Part shown: one piece after another, positions 10,323 to 54,037 of the stretch
How the letters are laid out: each line of letters starts with the position of its first letter
Numbering within the stretch: position 1 is the stretch's first letter
Assembly: GCA_963718875.1 (NCBI GenBank)
Contig: OY970378.1
Location: 477,373 to 541,372, forward strand
Source of the DNA: Candidatus Parcubacteria bacterium
Lineage (GTDB): Bacteria > Patescibacteriota > Saccharimonadia > UBA4664 > JBIOIQ01
Direction: 5' to 3'
DNA: 64,000 nucleotides
Notes under the pieces: model-generated
The model's database searches: none
What the model was told of the DNA's origin: nothing
The model's input: the letters and a program-made list of their open reading frames with translations, nothing else
Made by a program: the position numbers and the translations under genes

Positions 10323-10335
10323 AGAATAGCGTTAT

Positions 10336-10411
10336 GGGGACTAGGTGTCTGGGCTATGACACGTCTTGCATTATCGGTGCAAGGAAGGAGGTTCAAATCC
10401 TCAAGTCTCCA
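10336..10411 (+). tRNA. tRNA-like element (non-canonical; possible pseudo-tRNA or integration-site remnant)
   Basis: 7-bp acceptor pairing (GGGGACU/AGUCUCC). T-arm GGAGG-TTCAAAT-CCTC. D-arm GUGU/ACAC. Anticodon arm with a 7-nt loop UUAUCGG. Three extra nucleotides between the D and anticodon arms, and no encoded CCA. Confidence 0.35.
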
Positions 10412-10419
10412 CTGCAGTA

Positions 10420-10890
10420 CCTACCAAAACCAAAAAAGGGGAAAGTAGTGAGAAATTCTGTTCGAAGCCTCCCTGGATGGACCACCTGTTCTCTTCACTT
10501 TGGGGCGAGTTCTATCGCAGAAGCTCGGGTGAAAGCTCTAGGGTTGGTGGGCATGGCCGATGACGCCTCAGTTAAGGCGGCATTAAGGGGCTGGACCATC
10601 AGGCAGGTGATAGTTCGGGATGAGCGTTTCATCGCTTTGGTCGCAGAGCTAGAAGTTCTTGGAGTACATCTCAAAGAAAAGGGCGTTCCGCGCTCGTGGA
10701 GGGTCTCGAAAGAAGAAGCTTCAACTCTCGCTGCTCAGTAGTACAGGGAGTCGTCCATCTGATGGGAGGAAGCCCAAACAGGGTGGACAAGGGTGCTGCA
10801 AAAAGTTTTAAAGTTGGCGATCCTAACTTTGAGACTTGGCCTCCGAAAGACGTGATAACAGCGTGTCTTTTGGGGGCCTTACCCATGTTA
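10420..10890 (+). other. GC-rich (~55-58%) foreign-looking segment with protein-like but fragmented frames (e.g. MADDASVKAALRGWTIRQVIVRDERFIALVAELEVLGVHLKEKGVPRSW)
   Basis: GC content is elevated. Overlapping ORFs on both strands with no clean gene; it sits beside the tRNA-like element. Confidence 0.35.
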
Positions 10891-38891: not shown

Positions 38892-41237
38892 ATGGCTAGT
38901 ATGAATTTAGAAAGTAATTATTGGCTCAATTTGGCAGTTCGCCAAATTGTACAAAAATACCCGGAAGGTGATTTGGTAGTTTCAAGTGGGATTTCCCCTT
39001 CGGCGTCCTATCATATAGGCCATTTCCGCGAAACACTAACTGCTGATGCTTTAGCTTGGGGTTTGAGGCAGGCTGGGCGCAAAGTTATCCATAAGCACGT
39101 GGTAGATAATTTTGATCCATTGCGTCGCCGCTATGACTTCCTGCCGGAAGAGTATGAGCAGTATGTGGGTTGGCCAATCTGTCTATTGCCCGACCCGTTC
39201 GAGAAATGTATTGATGAGCACAAAACCTACGCCGAGCATTTTTACCGCGAATTTGAGAAGTATGCAGTCGCTATGGGAGTTGGTGGGGAGAAAGAGGAAA
39301 AAGCCGGAAATTTTGTAGCCATCCGCAGTTATGAGCAACTTTACGCCAGTGGCAAGATGGCTCCTCAGATAGAAAAGGTTGTAGATAAAAGTGATCTTAT
39401 TCGTCAAATTTTCAAAGAAGTCTCGAATCGCGATTTGCGTGAGGGGTGGTTGCCGTTACAGCTACTGGGACCAAATAAAAGCTTTAATGAGCTCAAGTTT
39501 AAATCTATCGATGTAGCTGCAAAGATAATAGTTGGAGTTGACGAAAGTGAACACGAGCATAGCCTAGATTACACACGAGGCGAAGTTAAGTTAAACTGGC
39601 GACTAGATTGGCCTGCTCGGTGGCAGATACTTGGTGTCCAAGTGGAGCCATTTGGGGTTCAGGAGCATGGTGCTGCCGGAAGCTCGTATGATACGGGAGT
39701 GGCTTTTAGCGAAAAAGTTTTTGGCTATCCTGCTCCAATGCCAGCCGCGCCTTACGGCAATATTCACCTGCTGGGTGATAATACTAAGATGAGCTCGTCT
39801 AAAGGTAATTTAATCACTCCAGAGCAGGCACTTCAAATAATGCCGGCCGAAATACTCCGATATTTCATTGTCCGAAGCAAGCCTGAGCGGACACTCTATT
39901 TTGATTCCGGGGTTGGACTATTCAACTTAATCGATGAGTTTTCGCAGATTCAAGAGGCCTTATCGAAAGACTTGACACATGAATTTGCTGATGCTTATTA
40001 CTTTGCTACCGCCAATACTACAGCAGAAAAGGTGATCTCAAGTGTGCCGTTTAACCACTTGGTAACGGCATATCAGACCGCTAGAGGTGATTTGAGTCAG
40101 GTCGTGGATATCCTGGCTAGAACAGGCTGGAAGCCGGCTGATAAGGCCGAGGAAGAGGTCTTGGGACGAGAAATCGTCTTTGTCAGTTCCTGGCTGGAGC
40201 GATATGCTCCGGACAGTATAAAGTTTCAAATCCAGCCAAGTTTGCCCAAGGTGCAGTTATCTGATACTCAGAGAGCTTTTTTAGGCCTGTTAGCGGCAGC
40301 GCTAGATAAAGAGGTAATAGCGGATGGTCAAAAAATGCACAATGAAATTTATACGGCTTCTGAAGGGGCTAAAATCAAACCGGCAGAGGCTTTTGAGGCA
40401 CTATATTTGGTGATTCTGAATAAAAAAGCCGGCCCTAAAGCGGGGTGGTTTTTAGCAAGTCTTGAGCACGAGTGGCTGGTGAAGCGATTACGGGAGGCTA
40501 CAGAACAGACTTCGGTGCAATCCGAGGCGGAACCGGTGCAAGATTTGGTGGCTCAGCTTGATCAAGGTAGGCAATTTAAGGTTGAGAGTGATTTGTTGAA
40601 GGCTTTTCCAAATACAGCCATTGGTTATTGCGTGGCGGATATTGAGGTAGAGGGTCGCTCTGATTATGATTTCGAAGGATTAAAATTGGCGCTGGAAATG
40701 GCGGGAGTGACGCTGGATAATATAGCTAATCAACCAGAAATAAAAGCTTGGCGTGAGGCTTACAAGATTTTTGGCGTAAAACCAAGTGATTATCGCAGCT
40801 CGGTCGAGGCATTAGTGAGGCGGGTGTTGGCTGATAAACCTTGGCATGTAAACAGTATTGTAGATACGTATAACGCTGTCTCGGTTAAGTATGTGGTGGC
40901 TATGGGTGCTATGGATTTGGATGAGGCTCATGGGGATATTAATCTTAGATTTGGCAAAGATGGTGAACTGGCTAATTTGATGGGGGTGGAGGAGCCTGTT
41001 GTTGTGAGCTCAAGACAGCCGGTCTATGCTGATGATGAGCAGATTATTACATGGTTGTGGAATTACCGTGACGCGGCAGCTACAGCTGTTACAGCTAAGA
41101 CTAAAAAGGCGGTTTTCTTTATCGATTCGGTGCGAGGGCGAGAGGCTGTTGAGACGGCTTTGAAAGAGCTAGTCAGAGAGCTGGAGCAGAAGCATAGAGC
41201 AAATGTGTTGACTCAAGGGATTCTATCGGCTAGTTAA
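38892..41237 (+). CDS. lysS: class I lysyl-tRNA synthetase fused to a C-terminal B3/4-type tRNA-binding/editing-like domain (~250 aa)
   Basis: HIGH motif (ASYHIGHFRE). KMSKS-like KMSSSKG. The C-terminal segment carries IKAWREAYKIFGVKPSDYRSSVEALVRRVL, characteristic of B3/4 domains. Confidence 0.8.
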   Translation: MASMNLESNYWLNLAVRQIVQKYPEGDLVVSSGISPSASYHIGHFRETLTADALAWGLRQAGRKVIHKHVVDNFDPLRRRYDFLPEEYEQYVGWPICLLPDPFEKCIDEHKTYAEHFYREFEKYAVAMGVGGEKEEKAGNFVAIRSYEQLYASGKMAPQIEKVVDKSDLIRQIFKEVSNRDLREGWLPLQLLGPNKSFNELKFKSIDVAAKIIVGVDESEHEHSLDYTRGEVKLNWRLDWPARWQILGVQVEPFGVQEHGAAGSSYDTGVAFSEKVFGYPAPMPAAPYGNIHLLGDNTKMSSSKGNLITPEQALQIMPAEILRYFIVRSKPERTLYFDSGVGLFNLIDEFSQIQEALSKDLTHEFADAYYFATANTTAEKVISSVPFNHLVTAYQTARGDLSQVVDILARTGWKPADKAEEEVLGREIVFVSSWLERYAPDSIKFQIQPSLPKVQLSDTQRAFLGLLAAALDKEVIADGQKMHNEIYTASEGAKIKPAEAFEALYLVILNKKAGPKAGWFLASLEHEWLVKRLREATEQTSVQSEAEPVQDLVAQLDQGRQFKVESDLLKAFPNTAIGYCVADIEVEGRSDYDFEGLKLALEMAGVTLDNIANQPEIKAWREAYKIFGVKPSDYRSSVEALVRRVLADKPWHVNSIVDTYNAVSVKYVVAMGAMDLDEAHGDINLRFGKDGELANLMGVEEPVVVSSRQPVYADDEQIITWLWNYRDAAATAVTAKTKKAVFFIDSVRGREAVETALKELVRELEQKHRANVLTQGILSAS

Positions 41238-41315
41238 ACTTGTGAAGACACTTTTTTTGCGCTAAATTAAAGCCAGCGCCGGACCAGCCGTCGCCTGTTT
41301 CGTGGAGGATGAATC

Positions 41316-41723
41316 TTGAGCCCACTTGAGGTTGCCGCTCTGAAGAGCCTGAATAAGGCTCGCAGAGCATGGGGATTGCCTTCGTGGCCGGCGCTGGTTC
41401 CGGCTACACCGTCCGACCCCTGTGGATGCGAGTTCTGGAAGGGGCTGGTCGACGGAGACCCATTGGTCTCGGTCGGAGCAGATCACATCATTGCTGGCCG
41501 AGATGCTGCTCGAGTCATCTATGCCGCCTTTGGCAGACTTGATGACGAGGGGAGAAGATGGGAGGTTCTGAGGGGAGATCTGGTCAAGATCAGGATGAGA
41601 GATACTCTCGCGAGCTTCGTGGAGGCCTTCGACGAGCGCCGTTTTCCTCATCTCATCGACGACGAGGCGGACGAGGCGTACCGGGTTAAGAGGGCGGCCG
41701 AGCAGACATTGGTTTCTGCCTAA
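41316..41723 (+). CDS. GC-rich (~62%) orphan hypothetical protein (135 aa), foreign-looking
   Basis: GGAGG Shine-Dalgarno with a TTG start. GC3-rich, protein-like frame. Followed by a 15-bp perfect hairpin at 41737-41778. Confidence 0.5.
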   Translation: MSPLEVAALKSLNKARRAWGLPSWPALVPATPSDPCGCEFWKGLVDGDPLVSVGADHIIAGRDAARVIYAAFGRLDDEGRRWEVLRGDLVKIRMRDTLASFVEAFDERRFPHLIDDEADEAYRVKRAAEQTLVSA

Positions 41724-41736
41724 TTGCTGCGCAACA

Positions 41737-41778
41737 TGATCCACCGTCGGTGGGGGGTTATCCCTCCACCGACGGTGG
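41737..41778 (+). terminator. 15-bp perfect inverted repeat hairpin (ATCCACCGTCGGTGG...CCACCGACGGTGGAT)
   Basis: Seen directly; GC-rich stem without a strong T-run. Confidence 0.5.
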
Positions 41779-51300: not shown

Positions 51301-51512
51301 ACAAATCTAATACAAAATACTTGCTTCGCATTAACCTGCAAGCAGTTATTGTTTCGTTAACTAGGGGAGACCTATGATGTTAGCGAAACGTTATCTGCTT
51401 GCATGAAACTGTGCAAGCGAGGATTCGACACTTAGTCGAATTCAGTTGCTCTACCGAACATACAGAAACCACAGACCAGGGTGAGAACTCTGGCAGAGCA
51501 AAGGAAAAGACC

Positions 51513-52448
51513 ATGTCCGACCAGACCGGAGGACCCGGTACCACCGCCCCACCCCGCCGACCCACGCTCCAGGAGCTCGCCGACCAGGCGAGAGCCACGA
51601 TCGAGGAGCAGGCTCGACAGGCGAATGACCTCCAGGGTCAGCGCTCCGCCATCAACGCGATCAGCGGTCGAGTGGCGCAGCACGACGACGCCATCGCTGA
51701 CCTCCGGGACGCTTCGGCCCAGCAGGCCGACGCCGTGGACCGCCTCGGCCAGCGCACGCTGGTGGTCGAGGGACGCACGGACTCGTTGGAGGACTTGGCT
51801 CGCGCCAACGCCGCCGGCGTGGCCGGGCTGACCGCCAACATGGCTGACCTGACCACCAACGTCAACACGCTGGCCACCACGGTGGGCCAGCACGACACCC
51901 GTCTCGACGCCGTCGAGGACGCCGTGACGCCGGCCGCTATGCGGACGGTCGTCACCGAGGTGGTCGAGGAGCGCATGCGCGCTGTTCGGTTCAACTGGGT
52001 GGCCTTCGCCGTGGTGGCGATCGTGGGCTTCATCATCGACCTGTTGGTGTTCTCCGAGATGGGGAGCTTCAACAGCGCCGAGGCGCCGAAGCTCTCCAAG
52101 CACCTCACGGACGTCATGCACACGCAGAACTTCCTGGCCGTCATGCTCGTTGTCCTGGCCCTCGCCATACTCATCGCCCTCATCGTTCCGGTGGTCGGGC
52201 AGGACGAGCGTCCCAGGCAGGACCGCCAGCCCAGGCCGCCTCGGCAGCCCGGATCCGGCGGTGGTTTCATGGCCGGTCTTCGCAACGTTTGGAGGAGGGG
52301 TCGCGGTACGCCCGCTGCCACTGCGCCCATCCCGGCCAACTCCACGCCGGTGGCGACGACGAACCCGTCGGCCTCGTCCAACGCGCCCACTCAGGTGCTG
52401 CCGGCGGTGCCGACGTCCGGTCCGACGCCCTCATCGGGCAACCCGTAG
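51513..52448 (+). CDS. GC-rich (~68%) foreign gene: coiled-coil membrane protein with two TM helices and a Pro/Ser/Thr-rich tail
   Basis: AGGAAAAG precedes the ATG. GC3 ~90%. Ala/Asp-rich heptad-like N-terminal region, then two hydrophobic helices. The overlapping antisense ORFs are GC-shadow ORFs. Confidence 0.6.
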   Translation: MSDQTGGPGTTAPPRRPTLQELADQARATIEEQARQANDLQGQRSAINAISGRVAQHDDAIADLRDASAQQADAVDRLGQRTLVVEGRTDSLEDLARANAAGVAGLTANMADLTTNVNTLATTVGQHDTRLDAVEDAVTPAAMRTVVTEVVEERMRAVRFNWVAFAVVAIVGFIIDLLVFSEMGSFNSAEAPKLSKHLTDVMHTQNFLAVMLVVLALAILIALIVPVVGQDERPRQDRQPRPPRQPGSGGGFMAGLRNVWRRGRGTPAATAPIPANSTPVATTNPSASSNAPTQVLPAVPTSGPTPSSGNP

Positions 52449-52518
52449 TCCACGCGGTTCTTCAAGTGGATTGTCCCAATTCAAATACCTCCTAGCGTCA
52501 AGCAAAGAGGGAACAACC

Positions 52519-52549
52519 CTCTGTCCGCCCTTCGGGGCGGACAGAGGAG
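52519..52549 (+). terminator. 13-bp perfect hairpin (cctctgtccgccc-ttcg-gggcggacagagg)
   Basis: Seen directly, between the two island genes. Confidence 0.55.
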
Positions 52550-52647
52550 CAACTTTTACTTCCATGGATAGTAGTCCGCGTGAGAAGCAATTCTTACTCG
52601 GTTTCTGTTCATGGTGCAATCGGCACCCAAACGATAAGGAGGGTGCC

Positions 52648-53826
52648 ATGAGCACCAGAAGAGGTCCTGTTCTGATCATCGTGTGTCTGCTGATGGCAGC
52701 GGGGGCTTTGCTGTTCAAGTACGGCAACGGCCCAACGCCGGCAGTGGCACAGACGCCGCCCACGGTGCCCGTTTCGGACGTCTGCAAGGACGTCCCGGGC
52801 AACGTGCCGAGGTGGTTTGCCAAGGAGACCGACGGCAACAAGTTCGGTCCGGCGGCTCCGTTTGACCTTGGTCCCGCCAGGAAGGCTCAGCACGAGGTCC
52901 TGTGCCTCGACCCGGCCAACCTGGTGATCACCCAGGAGACCATCGACGGGAAGTTCAGCAGTCCGGCAAACCGGGCTGCCCGGACTCGCGTTCTCGTTGC
53001 CAACCCCACTGCGCGGTTGGCAGCGGTGGCCTATGTGCAGGCAGAGTTGGCCAAGGCCAAGGAGGTTCGGCTGGAGGTCCACACGGGACCCTACCAGACC
53101 TTCTACATGACCACCGACGGCGACGTGCCGGAGGTGTTCCAGTCTGCAGGGAGCTTCACCGAGGCACGGCACGTTCTCGTGTACGACTTCGGTAACGGTC
53201 GCACGGTCAACTTCGTACTGGAGTGCAACTTCCAGGGGGAGTTCCCCGGGCCGGTCAAGAACGTGCCGGTGGCAACGCCGGGCACTGTGCCGGCGCTGGT
53301 TCAGCCGGGGCCCACCAGCCCGCCGCCGACGACGTGCCAGTCGACCAACACCTGTTCGACCGTGACCAGCCCACCGCCCGTGTGCTGCGGACCGCCCCCG
53401 ACGACGTGTCAGGTCAACTGCGGTCCGCCCCCGACGACGTGTCAGGTCAACTGCGGTCCGCCGCCGACGACGTGTCAGGTCAACTGCGGTCCGCCGCCGA
53501 CGACGTGTCAGGTCAACTGCGGTCCGCCGCCGACCGTTTGCACACACAAGTGCGCGGGAGAGGACGTTGCGGTCAGTCCGAGTCTGGATCCTGTCGTTTC
53601 GGGACTGGCTGCGGGCAATGCCGCACCCACTGCGGTGGCAACACCGGTCGTGACGGCGCCTCCGGCGCCGCCTCCGCCCGTGACCACAGCCACGCCACCC
53701 GTGACGGCTCTGCCGTCCTCCGATGGCGTGGCAGCTCCACCGCCTGTAGTGGCTCCACCGTACGTGGCGCCCGATGCGGGCACTCCGTCCAACCCGACGA
53801 CGGGAACCATTCCGCCGCCGCCGTAG
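52648..53826 (+). CDS. GC-rich foreign gene: secreted/membrane-anchored protein with five CGPPPTTCQVN Cys-containing tandem repeats and a Pro-rich tail
   Basis: AAGGAGGG Shine-Dalgarno precedes the ATG at 52648. N-terminal hydrophobic signal/anchor. Repeats of 33 bp at 53386-53553. Confidence 0.6.
   Translation: MSTRRGPVLIIVCLLMAAGALLFKYGNGPTPAVAQTPPTVPVSDVCKDVPGNVPRWFAKETDGNKFGPAAPFDLGPARKAQHEVLCLDPANLVITQETIDGKFSSPANRAARTRVLVANPTARLAAVAYVQAELAKAKEVRLEVHTGPYQTFYMTTDGDVPEVFQSAGSFTEARHVLVYDFGNGRTVNFVLECNFQGEFPGPVKNVPVATPGTVPALVQPGPTSPPPTTCQSTNTCSTVTSPPPVCCGPPPTTCQVNCGPPPTTCQVNCGPPPTTCQVNCGPPPTTCQVNCGPPPTVCTHKCAGEDVAVSPSLDPVVSGLAAGNAAPTAVATPVVTAPPAPPPPVTTATPPVTALPSSDGVAAPPPVVAPPYVAPDAGTPSNPTTGTIPPPP
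53386..53553 (+). repeat. 33-bp tandem repeat x5 (ggtccgcc[c/g]ccgacgacgtgtcaggtcaactgc) encoding GPPPTTCQVNC
   Basis: Four near-identical copies plus one degenerate copy, seen directly. Confidence 0.85.
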
Positions 53827-54037
53827 GACACCACTTCTGCCCATTCGGGCAGGGGTCTACCCCAGGGTCTGGGGTGGTGCGCAAGCGCCACCCCGCCCTG
53901 TGGGTATACATATTCTTAATGATTTTGGATTATTCGATTGCTCCAAGGGTTAGTGCCCTTTAACATTTAGCGTCCAACTTAACTTGTAGATCATATTAAA
54001 TTCATTTTAACGTTCATTATTTAAAAGGAGAGCACAT

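What the first reader, a model, noticed from the sequence alone, without database searches (positions are those of the whole stretch)
38892..41237. Class I lysyl-tRNA synthetase carrying a C-terminal B3/4-type domain
The first ~530 residues are a canonical class I LysRS (HIGH/KMSKS). The last ~250 residues contain the hallmark B3/4 motif (AWREAYKIFGVKPSDYRSSVEALVRRVL) otherwise known from PheT and from stand-alone putative tRNA-binding or editing proteins. I am not aware of such a fusion being described. It may add a tRNA-handling or editing function to LysRS-I.
Basis: partly seen in the sequence, partly recalled or inferred. Interest (0 to 1): 0.65.

Follow-up and report, generated by a model that had tools for sequence, protein, structure and literature searches.

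The report
Lysine tRNA synthetase with proofreading domain
A Saccharimonadia (candidate-phylum) bacterium's enzyme that loads lysine onto tRNA carries a complete extra domain of the recently discovered CtdA type, which removes wrongly attached amino acids from tRNA, suggesting a proofreading step not described for lysyl-tRNA synthetases.

Summary
Window 38892-41237 (+) is one uninterrupted 781-aa ORF. Residues 1-538 are a bona fide class I LysRS (HIGH 41-44, KMSSS 299-303; TIGR00467 356 bits, cut-off 148). Residues 552-781 are a complete B3/4 module (PF03483, 82 bits, cut-off 29).

The module is not PheT-like. Its nearest solved relatives, by sequence and by predicted fold, are the stand-alone canavanyl-tRNA(Arg) deacylases CtdA (9mkl, 9f7e).

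The fusion is not an assembly artefact. It recurs in at least nine independent Patescibacteria assemblies, always in the conserved GreA-lysS-serS slot.

In sister lineages the same module clade takes three other forms:
- a separate gene after a class I lysS;
- a separate gene after a class II LysRS::AlaX fusion;
- an insert between a class II LysRS and its AlaX domain.

Among the 150 best database representatives, the only synthetases fused to this module family are LysRS (both classes, either end) and ArgRS.

The catalytic Asn and the pocket Gly of CtdA are kept. Four of CtdA's six pocket residues differ (E118M, C166T, Q173D, I189F).

Best reading, not tested biochemically: a tethered post-transfer editing domain that clears a non-lysine, probably basic, amino acid from tRNA(Lys). 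I found no paper describing this.

The parts
38892..41237 (+). Whole gene: 781-aa LysRS-I::B3/4 fusion (stop codon 41235-41237)
   Evidence: Single ORF; the identical protein is on record from a 1.19-Mb contig
38892..40505 (+). Class I lysyl-tRNA synthetase core, residues 1-538 (Rossmann catalytic domain plus helical anticodon-binding domain)
   Evidence: PF01921 E 4.5e-78; TIGR00467 355.7 bits against 147.55, residues 10-535; the AF2 model's last core helix is 526-538
39012..39023 (+). HIGH signature (H41-I-G-H44)
   Evidence: Sequence
39786..39800 (+). KMSKS-type signature (K299-M-S-S-S303)
   Evidence: Sequence
40506..40544 (+). Short linker, residues 539-551 (TEQTSVQSEAEPV), between the two domains
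   Evidence: Residues 541-546 are one of only four stretches of the full-length AF2 model with pLDDT below 50, the others being the N-terminus and two loops inside the core; no secondary structure across 539-551
40545..41234 (+). Complete CtdA-like B3/B4 aminoacyl-tRNA deacylase module, residues 552-781
   Evidence: AF2 pLDDT 90.5; Foldseek to CtdA 9f7e/9mkl E ~2e-15, TM 0.72-0.74 over 226-231 columns; phmmer to 9mkl E 7e-14
40746..41138 (+). Stretch matched by Pfam B3_4 (PF03483), residues 619-749
   Evidence: 82.3 bits against a cut-off of 29.3
40872..40874 (+). N661, equivalent of CtdA N105 / PheRS-beta N254 (essential in CtdA)
   Evidence: Alignments; invariant in alignment A1; role from PMC12449066 section 25
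40905..40913 (+). G672-A-M674: G672 = CtdA G116 (kept); M674 = CtdA E118 (changed)
   Evidence: CtdA pocket definition from PMC12449066 section 24
41049..41072 (+). T720-W-L-W-N-Y-R-D727 pocket strand: T720 = CtdA C166 (specificity residue), W721 L722 = R167 R168, D727 = Q173
   Evidence: W, L, W, N and D are invariant in the Patescibacteria module clade
41118..41120 (+). F743, equivalent of CtdA pocket residue I189
   Evidence: Alignment; residue numbering

Best explanation
The gene encodes the housekeeping class I lysyl-tRNA synthetase of a Saccharimonadia (Patescibacteria) bacterium. A short linker joins it to a complete CtdA-type B3/B4 aminoacyl-tRNA deacylase.

Proposed mechanism:
1. The LysRS-I core charges tRNA(Lys).
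2. If a non-cognate amino acid has been attached, the aminoacylated CCA end is captured by the tethered module. Capture happens either by translocation in cis or straight after release.
3. The module hydrolyses the ester bond, using the conserved Asn661 and the pocket formed by G672, M674, T720-W-L-W-N-Y-R-D727 and F743.
4. Lys-tRNA(Lys) is spared.

The pocket differs from canavanine-specific CtdA at four of six positions, so the substrate is probably not canavanine on tRNA(Arg). It is more likely a near-cognate, probably basic, amino acid on tRNA(Lys). Candidates are arginine, ornithine, or a lysine or arginine antimetabolite.

Shown here: the architecture, the family assignment, the fold, the conservation, and the genomic and fusion linkage to LysRS. 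Inferred: hydrolytic activity, tRNA(Lys) as the carrier, the identity of the substrate, and cis versus tethered-trans action.
For: Architecture and family.

The family has a demonstrated deacylase function (CtdA; PMC10018355, PMC12449066).

N105 is essential in CtdA, and replacing G116 with a bulkier residue (His or Trp) inactivates CtdA. Both are conserved here as N661 and G672. Across Patescibacteria modules that are only ~50% identical, 38 columns are invariant, including W-L-W-N and D of the pocket strand.

Linkage to LysRS regardless of synthetase class. One monophyletic module clade occurs in four forms:
- fused to the LysRS-I C-terminus (window; P0002, P0009, P0019, P0028, P0029, P0091; L006-L008);
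- as a separate gene after class I lysS (L002);
- as an overlapping separate gene after LysRS-II::AlaX (L001);
- inserted between LysRS-II and AlaX (P0376/L087).
Wherever enough flanking sequence was recovered to see it, the locus is the same MreBCD-PBP2-GreA-lysS-serS slot.

Partner census. Among the 150 best representatives of 2412 homologues, the only synthetase partners are LysRS (11 proteins; both classes; N- and C-terminal) and ArgRS (5 proteins). The ArgRS-fused modules keep the CtdA pocket (E118, C166, R167-R168), which matches CtdA's known tRNA(Arg) substrate. This acts as a positive control for reading the fusion partner as the tRNA acted upon.

Supporting context:
- In Synergistaceae the same T-W-L-W-N pocket type overlaps a YbaK-type tRNA_edit gene.
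- In Saccharimonadales LysRS-II is very often fused to an AlaX-type domain, and sometimes to DUF2000. Appended extra domains on LysRS, at least two of them of known editing type, are therefore a lineage-wide theme.
Against: - There are no biochemical data for this protein or for any LysRS-linked module.
- Four of the six CtdA pocket residues differ, so neither the activity nor the substrate can be transferred by homology.
- The closest LysRS-I relatives (60-70% identical cores, for example P0003/L003) lack the module altogether. It is therefore dispensable in most of the clade.
- The match between pocket type and partner is imperfect. Some LysRS fusions (P0233, P0248, P0189, P0223, P0229) carry a CtdA-like C-R-x-W-N-W pocket.
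- The mischarging evidence is for class II LysRS, not class I.
- The geometry between the synthetic site and the module pocket could not be measured with the available tools.
- Whether the genome has a second lysS is unknown.
Confidence: 0.6

Rival explanations
1. The module is a deacylase that works in trans on the product of a different synthetase, for example canavanyl- or another analogue-tRNA(Arg) as CtdA does. Its fusion to LysRS then only secures co-expression with a translation gene.
For: CtdA is a free-standing trans-acting enzyme (PMC10018355). The module also exists as a separate gene in L001 and L002. Several LysRS fusions elsewhere carry a CtdA-like pocket. The linker is short and disordered, so the module could also act on released substrates.
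Against: Independent fusions involve two unrelated LysRS classes, at either end, in at least six architectures, and otherwise only ArgRS. That pattern is hard to explain by co-expression alone. The window's pocket lacks the CtdA residues E118, C166, R167, R168 and Q173, whereas the ArgRS-fused modules keep them apart from a conservative Q173E change. The module stays beside lysS even when the class of lysS is replaced.
Confidence: 0.17
2. The module is catalytically silent. It serves as an appended tRNA-binding or chaperoning domain that raises the affinity of LysRS-I for tRNA(Lys), or helps the tRNA-dependent amino-acid activation typical of LysRS-I.
For: The B3/B4 fold binds the tRNA acceptor end. 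LysRS-I needs tRNA for activation (PMC7373986). Four of the six CtdA pocket residues are changed. Appended tRNA-binding domains are common in synthetases; P0287 carries both tRNA_bind and B3/4.
Against: The Asn that is essential for catalysis in CtdA, and the pocket Gly, are invariant. The pocket strand (W-L-W-N..D) is the best-conserved part of the module. That pattern is expected for a ligand pocket, not for a generic RNA-binding surface. The same pocket type sits in an operon with a YbaK-type editing gene in Synergistaceae, and next to or inside LysRS-II::AlaX fusions.
Confidence: 0.13
3. The module hydrolyses cognate or stereo-variant products (Lys-tRNA(Lys) or D-Lys-tRNA(Lys)). It would then regulate charging levels or remove D-amino acids, and would not be removing a different amino acid.
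For: Compared with CtdA, the pocket is more hydrophobic and aromatic (M674, W721, L722, W723, F743), with a single invariant acidic residue (D727). This could suit a long aliphatic cation such as lysine itself. This is inference only.
Against: Hydrolysis of the cognate product by a domain tethered to the synthetase would be a futile ATP-consuming cycle in an organism with a very small genome. No member of the fold is known to do this. CtdA hydrolyses Arg-tRNA(Arg) only weakly, and ArgRS and EF-Tu block even that (PMC12449066 section 26).
Confidence: 0.07
4. The fusion is an artefact: a missed stop codon, a frameshift or a chimeric assembly that joins lysS to a downstream B3/4 gene.
For: In one relative (L002) the two parts are separate genes, so an adjacent-gene state exists.
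Against: The ORF is uninterrupted. The identical protein is held by three sources. The same architecture occurs in at least nine other independent assemblies at only 42-55% identity. Composition is equal across the junction. The full-length AF2 model is confident on both sides of a short linker.
Confidence: 0.02

Closest known systems
CtdA, canavanyl-tRNA(Arg) deacylase (stand-alone B3/4 protein; PDB 9f7e, 9mkl; PMC10018355, PMC12449066)
   Same: Same fold over the full ~230 residues, including the CtdA-specific helical insert (Foldseek TM 0.72-0.74). Significant sequence similarity (E 7e-14). The essential Asn (N105 -> N661) and the pocket Gly (G116 -> G672) are conserved.
   Different: It is covalently fused to a synthetase, whereas CtdA is free-standing. 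The partner is LysRS, not ArgRS. Four of the six pocket residues differ (E118M, C166T, Q173D, I189F), and R167-R168 become W-L. Identity is only 22-24% in the Foldseek structural alignment. It is therefore not a canavanine-specific CtdA in the strict sense.
B3/B4 editing domain of bacterial PheRS beta subunit (PheT)
   Same: Same general B3/B4 fold (Foldseek E 1e-8 to 1e-9, TM about 0.6). The catalytic-water Asn is shared. It is the precedent for this fold working as a cis post-transfer editing domain inside a synthetase.
   Different: The pheT_bact model scores 20 bits against a cut-off of 403. The PDB sequence hit is only E 0.23. PheT has different inserts and pocket residues. CtdA, the closest relative of our module, cannot replace PheRS editing (PMC12449066 section 25). 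In PheRS the domain is internal to a multi-domain beta subunit, not a C-terminal appendage.
Canonical class I LysRS (TIGR00467; Pyrococcus horikoshii 1IRX type) and the ~525-aa Saccharimonadia orthologues
   Same: Residues 1-538 are orthologous, up to 70% identical to P0003, in the same GreA-lysS-serS locus. The HIGH and KMSKS motifs are intact.
   Different: Canonical LysRS-I ends at about residue 525-530 and has no editing domain. This protein continues for another 243 residues.
Synthetases with appended AlaX-type editing domains (AlaRS, ThrRS), and the Saccharimonadales LysRS-II::AlaX fusions seen here
   Same: The same design principle: a hydrolytic editing module of a family that also exists free-standing, covalently attached to a synthetase. 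In L001 and P0376 the AlaX-type domain and the B3/4 module serve the same LysRS.
   Different: A different fold and a different synthetase class. AARS Online lists AlaX only in AlaRS and ThrRS (PMC11580382). The AlaX-like part of the L001 protein scores 96 bits against the AlaXM cut-off of 300, so it is a divergent relative.

Membership tests
Class I lysyl-tRNA synthetase (TIGR00467 / PF01921) | Whole-protein score above the curated family cut-off | tested here: met
   TIGR00467 355.7 bits against 147.55, model positions 2-513 of 515; PF01921 263 bits against 27
Class I lysyl-tRNA synthetase (TIGR00467 / PF01921) | HIGH and KMSKS class I signature motifs | tested here: met
   HIGH at residues 41-44 and KMSSS at 299-303
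Class I lysyl-tRNA synthetase (TIGR00467 / PF01921) | Orthology with the housekeeping lysS of the lineage (conserved locus) | tested here: met
   The same MreBCD-PBP2-GreA-lysS-(~135 aa ORF)-serS-S30AE-secA order as in L003 and L004. It nests inside Saccharimonadia LysRS-I in the NJ tree
Class I lysyl-tRNA synthetase (TIGR00467 / PF01921) | tRNA-dependent lysine activation and lysylation of tRNA(Lys) | not testable with these tools
   Needs enzyme assays
Pfam B3_4 (PF03483) | Score above the gathering threshold | tested here: met
   82.3 bits (85.2 for the isolated C-terminus) against 29.3
CtdA-like stand-alone B3/B4 deacylase family (broad sense) | Full-length B3/B4 fold with the CtdA-type helical insert, closer to CtdA than to PheT | tested here: met
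   Foldseek: CtdA 9f7e/9mkl E ~2e-15, 226-231 aligned columns of 226-231 residues, TM 0.72-0.74; best PheRS-beta E 9e-10, TM 0.61. phmmer: E 7e-14 against 0.23
CtdA-like stand-alone B3/B4 deacylase family (broad sense) | Essential Asn (CtdA N105) and small residue at G116 | tested here: met
   N661 and G672, invariant in alignment A1
CtdA in the strict sense (canavanyl-tRNA(Arg) deacylase, CtdA-1 clade) | Pocket residues E118, C166, Q173 and I189 (C166 strictly conserved and governing specificity) | tested here: not met
   M674, T720, D727 and F743; R167-R168 replaced by W721-L722 (definition in PMC12449066 sections 24, 27)
CtdA in the strict sense (canavanyl-tRNA(Arg) deacylase, CtdA-1 clade) | Hydrolysis of canavanyl-tRNA(Arg) | not testable with these tools
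   Needs deacylation assays
PheRS beta-subunit editing domain (PheT) | Membership of pheT_bact, and the PheRS editing-site residues (E. coli R244, N254, Y255, H265, F267, A312, G318, E334) | tested here: not met
   TIGR00472 20.2 bits against a cut-off of 402.65. H265 corresponds to Gly, as in CtdA. By transitivity through the published CtdA alignment, G318 corresponds to D727 (PMC12449066 section 25)

The most novel reading that the evidence does not exclude
LysRS is treated in the literature as lacking any post-transfer editing domain. In Patescibacteria it has repeatedly acquired dedicated hydrolytic proofreading modules. The window protein would be the first class I LysRS with a cis-editing domain.

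Its T-W-L-W-N pocket would define a new specificity branch of the CtdA family. That branch would clear a lysine-mimicking or basic amino acid from tRNA(Lys). Candidates are Arg, ornithine, or a lysine or arginine antimetabolite made by the host or the community.

More broadly, CtdA-type modules would be a general proofreading cassette for basic amino acids. They have been recruited independently by both unrelated LysRS classes and by ArgRS.
Probability: 0.45. Interest if true: 0.8.

Novelty: new variant of a known kind. Interest (0 to 1): 0.62.

Why it matters
Reviews describe LysRS as having only active-site pre-transfer editing, and the mBio paper states that it lacks post-transfer editing (PMC7373986, PMC4173786). 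ArgRS was said in 2023 to have no known editing domain (PMC10018355).

A LysRS with a tethered deacylase would add a new entry to the catalogue of synthetase quality-control mechanisms. So would the wider pattern seen here: LysRS of both classes, and ArgRS, fused to CtdA-type modules, with AlaX and DUF2000 also fused to LysRS-II.

The pattern would also give the largely uncharacterised CtdA-like family (2412 database representatives) a second, testable substrate class. Only the canavanine-specific branch has been characterised so far.

It would further point to a specific selective pressure on lysine decoding in ultra-small, amino-acid-scavenging episymbionts.

In practical terms, the module is a compact, separately folding unit. 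It could be assayed or transplanted to probe lysine-analogue toxicity and to engineer fidelity.

Tried and rejected
- **Artefact or misassembly:** rejected.
- **PheT-derived domain:** rejected in favour of the CtdA-like family.
- **Canavanine-specific CtdA:** rejected on pocket residues.
- **Recent lateral insertion of the module:** no compositional signal. The module tree roughly follows the core tree, so an old association with many losses is favoured. The NJ trees have no support values, and gain by recombination is not excluded.
- **Source genome:** The look-up of encoding contigs had no record for the exact protein. The genome is not among the species representatives that were hit. The listing of cluster members gave no accession. 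The whole-genome check for a class II lysS was therefore impossible; the window itself has none.
- **Substrate clues from gene context:** the more distant stand-alone homologues have no LysRS or ArgRS within ±6 kb. The Synergistaceae neighbourhoods gave a YbaK-type editing gene but nothing specific to lysine.
- **Literature searches for LysRS with B3/B4 or AlaX:** found nothing. The Nat Chem 2026 paper on deacylase-guided discovery covers only AlaX.
- **Promoter and terminator scan around the gene:** not above the shuffled expectation, and no internal signal at the junction.
- **Rfam:** no family in the window at gathering thresholds.
Full report
**1. The observation.**

Window 38892-41237 (+) is a single 781-aa ORF with an ATG start. 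Pfam places tRNA-synt_1f (class I LysRS) on residues 11-363 (E 4.5e-78). It places B3_4 on residues 619-749 (82 bits against a gathering score of 29.3). NCBIfam's lysS_arch equivalog covers residues 10-535 at 356 bits against a cut-off of 148. The class I signatures are intact: HIGH at 41-44 and KMSSS at 299-303. A full-length AlphaFold2 model is confident (mean pLDDT 90.6). The last helix of the synthetase ends at residue 538. Residues 541-546 fall below pLDDT 50, and the first strand of the C-terminal module starts at 552.

**2. It is not an artefact.**

- The identical protein is on record from a 1.19-Mb contig held by NCBI, ENA and Logan.
- Six other full-length proteins of 755-813 aa, only 42-53% identical overall, have the same two Pfam domains.
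- A pattern scan of 185,579 species-representative genomes found the fusion in three Saccharimonadia MAGs and, on a truncated contig, in a Doudnabacteria MAG (L005-L008).
- GC and GC3 are the same in the core and the module.

**3. What the C-terminal module is.**

It is not PheT-like. The pheT_bact model scores 20 bits against a cut-off of 403. Against all PDB sequences, the best hits are two stand-alone B3/4 proteins: 9mkl (E 7e-14) and 9f7e, named 'CtdA canavanyl tRNA deacylase' (E 4e-12). PheRS-beta reaches only E 0.23.

The module (residues 550-781) was modelled from an 11-sequence alignment and folds with pLDDT 90.5. Foldseek aligns it over its full length to CtdA (E ~2e-15, TM 0.72-0.74). 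PheRS-beta B3/B4 domains come second (TM about 0.6).

CtdA hydrolyses canavanyl-tRNA(Arg) and protects cells from canavanine (PMC10018355, PMC12449066). These lie in the helical insert that the CtdA structure paper describes as specific to CtdA and absent from PheRS (PMC12449066 section 24).

**4. The pocket.**

The CtdA paper defines the aminoacyl pocket by N105, G116, E118, C166, Q173 and I189. N105 is essential. G116 must stay small, because replacing it with His or Trp inactivates CtdA. C166 tunes specificity for canavanine against arginine.

| CtdA residue | Window protein |
|---|---|
| N105 | N661 (kept) |
| G116 | G672 (kept) |
| E118 | M674 |
| C166 | T720 |
| R167-R168 | W721-L722 |
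| Q173 | D727 |
| I189 | F743 |

Across Patescibacteria modules that are only ~50% identical, 38 columns are invariant. They include N, G, W-L-W-N and D. The catalytic core therefore looks preserved and under selection, but the specificity pocket has been rebuilt. This is a CtdA-family enzyme, but not a canavanine CtdA.

**5. Genomic context.**

Saccharimonadia share the gene order MreB-MreC-MreD-PBP2-GreA-lysS-(~135-aa ORF)-serS-S30AE-secA. At the lysS position I found the following states:

- plain LysRS-I of ~525 aa, which is the majority, including the closest relative P0003 with a 70% identical core (L003);
- LysRS-I::B3/4 (the window; L004);
- LysRS-I, then a 66-aa ORF, then a separate 231-aa B3/4 gene (L002);
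- LysRS-II fused to an AlaX-type domain, followed by an overlapping separate B3/4 gene (L001);
- LysRS-II::B3/4::AlaX in one 1005-aa polypeptide (P0376/L087);
- plain LysRS-II;
- LysRS-II::AlaX, which accounts for 87 of the best 120 hits;
- LysRS-II with DUF2000, with or without AlaX.

All the B3/4 modules in these loci belong to one clade with the pocket type (T/S)-W-L-W-N-(Y/H)-R-D-A. The module therefore stays with lysS even where the unrelated class II enzyme occupies the slot.

**6. Evolution.**

In an NJ tree of LysRS-I cores, the fused forms sit in at least four places:
- P0001 beside unfused P0003;
- P0002 beside unfused P0117;
- an all-fused P0009/P0019/P0028/P0029 clade;
- P0091 alone.

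The module tree is monophyletic for Patescibacteria and roughly mirrors the core tree. L008 pairs with P0091, and P0019, P0028 and P0123 group together. I read this as an old association with lysS followed by many losses, plus fission, fusion and class replacement. The trees have no support values, so repeated gain is not excluded.

**7. Wider survey.**

An exhaustive HMMER search of 1.84 billion representatives with the module gave 2412 hits, 943 of them below 1e-10. Most are ~230-aa stand-alone proteins. Among the best 150, the multi-domain proteins resolve as follows:

| Architecture | Proteins |
|---|---|
| LysRS-I with C-terminal module | P0009, P0121, P0248 |
| Module followed by LysRS-I | P0233 |
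| Module followed by LysRS-II | P0148, P0153, P0189, P0223, P0229 |
| LysRS-II followed by module | P0265, P0287 |
| Module followed by ArgRS | P0204, P0219, P0246, P0252, P0262 |
| Module with ankyrin repeats | about 13 proteins |
| ATP-grasp amino-acid ligase with module | P0165 |

All four full-length class II partners pass the curated LysRS cut-offs, and the truncated P0153 matches the same LysRS models. P0189 and P0223 were assigned by local phmmer only. No other synthetase family appears as a partner.

The ArgRS-fused modules keep the CtdA pocket (G-A-E-D and C-R-R/K-W-N-W-R-E). This matches CtdA's known tRNA(Arg) substrate and supports reading the fusion partner as the tRNA acted upon. 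The LysRS fusions use at least three pocket types: (C/T/S)-W-L-W-N, a CtdA-like C-R-x-W-N-W, and T-C-(I/L)-x-F-N-Y. They therefore arose several times. It also means the substrate need not be the same in all of them.

**8. Mechanism.**

Best-supported reading (confidence about 0.6): the protein is the housekeeping LysRS-I with a tethered post-transfer editing domain. After transfer, the aminoacyl-CCA end reaches the module pocket. A non-cognate aminoacyl ester is then hydrolysed with the help of N661, and Lys-tRNA(Lys) is spared.

Shown:
- the architecture, the family and the fold;
- conservation of the catalytic positions;
- linkage to LysRS regardless of class;
- the restriction of synthetase partners to LysRS and ArgRS.

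Inferred:
- the activity;
- tRNA(Lys) as the carrier;
- the substrate;
- cis versus tethered-trans action.

Published work gives a rationale. [quoted passage not shown] It edits homocysteine, homoserine and ornithine only before transfer (PMC7373986).

One possible division of labour is that the AlaX-type domains clear small residues and the CtdA-type modules clear long basic ones. This is my speculation.

**9. Rivals.**

- A trans-acting deacylase for another tRNA, fused only for co-expression (0.17).
- A non-catalytic tRNA-binding appendage (0.13).
- Hydrolysis of cognate or D-lysyl products (0.07).
- Artefact (0.02).

Evidence and refutation tests for each are given in the structured fields.

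**10. Novelty.**

- The three CtdA papers contain none of the words fusion, fused, LysRS or lysyl.
- Hauth et al. state that no ArgRS editing domain was known.
- AARS Online lists AlaX domains only in AlaRS and ThrRS.
- Full-text searches combining LysRS or lysyl-tRNA synthetase with B3/B4 found nothing. Searches combining LysRS with AlaX, Saccharibacteria or editing terms found no paper describing such a fusion.
- Databases annotate these proteins simply as 'lysine--tRNA ligase'.

The components are known: a class I LysRS and a CtdA-family deacylase fold. The principle of appending an editing domain to a synthetase is classical. I therefore rate this a new variant of a known kind. The combination, the rebuilt pocket and the lineage-wide pattern are new to the literature I could search.

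**11. Limits.**

- There is no biochemistry.
- The NJ trees have no support values.
- The genome scan was pattern-limited and capped at 80 loci.
- Most of the other fusion architectures come from unnamed metagenome contigs, some seen only once.
- The source genome outside the 64-kb window could not be examined.

Noticed in passing
L001:2156-4471 (also L085:4001-6322, L086:4001-6313): Class II LysRS fused to a C-terminal AlaX-type (AlaRS editing-domain-like) region, ~770 aa. It is very common in Saccharimonadales (87 of the best 120 hits) and always sits downstream of GreA. I found no paper describing it. The AlaXM model scores only 96 bits against a cut-off of 300, so the domain is divergent.
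   Followed up: partly
L087:4001-7018 (P0376, 1005 aa): A single polypeptide with LysRS-II, a B3/4 module (residues 587-711, pocket VLTWLWNHRDA, 43% identical to the window's module) and an AlaX-type domain. It occupies the same MreBCD-PBP2-GreA slot.
   Followed up: yes
P0375, P0377 (909 aa) and P0403 (664 aa): LysRS-II fused to PF09391 (DUF2000), with or without a further AlaX-type domain. This is a third kind of appended domain on Saccharimonadia LysRS, and its function is unknown.
   Followed up: partly
P0204, P0219, P0252, P0262 (868-1154 aa) and P0246 (1124 aa, two module copies): ArgRS proteins with N-terminal CtdA-type B3/4 modules. Those of P0204, P0219, P0252 and P0262 keep the canavanine-type pocket (C166, R167, E118); the two copies in P0246 lack Cys166. 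These would be ArgRS enzymes with a built-in editing domain, which Hauth et al. 2023 said was unknown. The source organisms were not identified.
   Followed up: partly
P0141, P0142, P0144, P0157, P0161, P0163, P0170, P0180, P0222 and others: About 13 proteins with an N-terminal B3/4 module (C-W-L-W-N pocket type) followed by ankyrin repeats. Outside Patescibacteria these are the closest relatives of the window's module (40-46% identity). Organisms and function are unknown.
   Followed up: no
P0165 (696 aa): An ATP-grasp amino-acid ligase (it matches a DdaF-like dapdiamide-synthase model, below that model's cut-off) fused to a T-W-L-W-N-type B3/4 module. This may be a self-resistance deacylase attached to a non-proteinogenic amino-acid or peptide pathway.
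   Followed up: no
L011:5998-6702 and L011:6699-7214 (Synergistaceae): A stand-alone T-W-L-W-N-type B3/4 gene overlaps by 4 nt a downstream YbaK/ProX-type aminoacyl-tRNA editing gene (PF04073). This looks like an operon of two editing factors. An ornithine cyclodeaminase gene lies nearby in L009.
   Followed up: partly
L002:602-802: A 66-aa ORF with no family match lies between the class I lysS and the separate B3/4 gene. It was not examined as a possible remnant of the linker, or as the product of a frameshift in a formerly fused gene.
   Followed up: no
window 41316-41723 (+), overlapping a 160-aa ORF on the minus strand at 41262-41744: A GC-rich ORF (0.59 against 0.46 for the window) of 135 aa between lysS and serS. 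A weakly similar ORF (23-30% identity, E ~1e-7) occupies the same position in L003 and L004, and is also GC-rich relative to its locus. It has no Pfam family and no Rfam match.
   Followed up: partly
window 51400-54000: A block with GC 0.64 in a window of 0.46, with long overlapping ORFs on both strands (558 aa on + and 411 aa on -). They have no significant Pfam match and no Rfam match. It may be a foreign or repetitive segment.
   Followed up: no
window 10336-10412: ARAGORN calls a tRNA-Asp with the unusual anticodon ATC. It lies inside the ORF 10334-10741, and Rfam finds no tRNA there at its gathering threshold. It is probably a false positive.
   Followed up: partly
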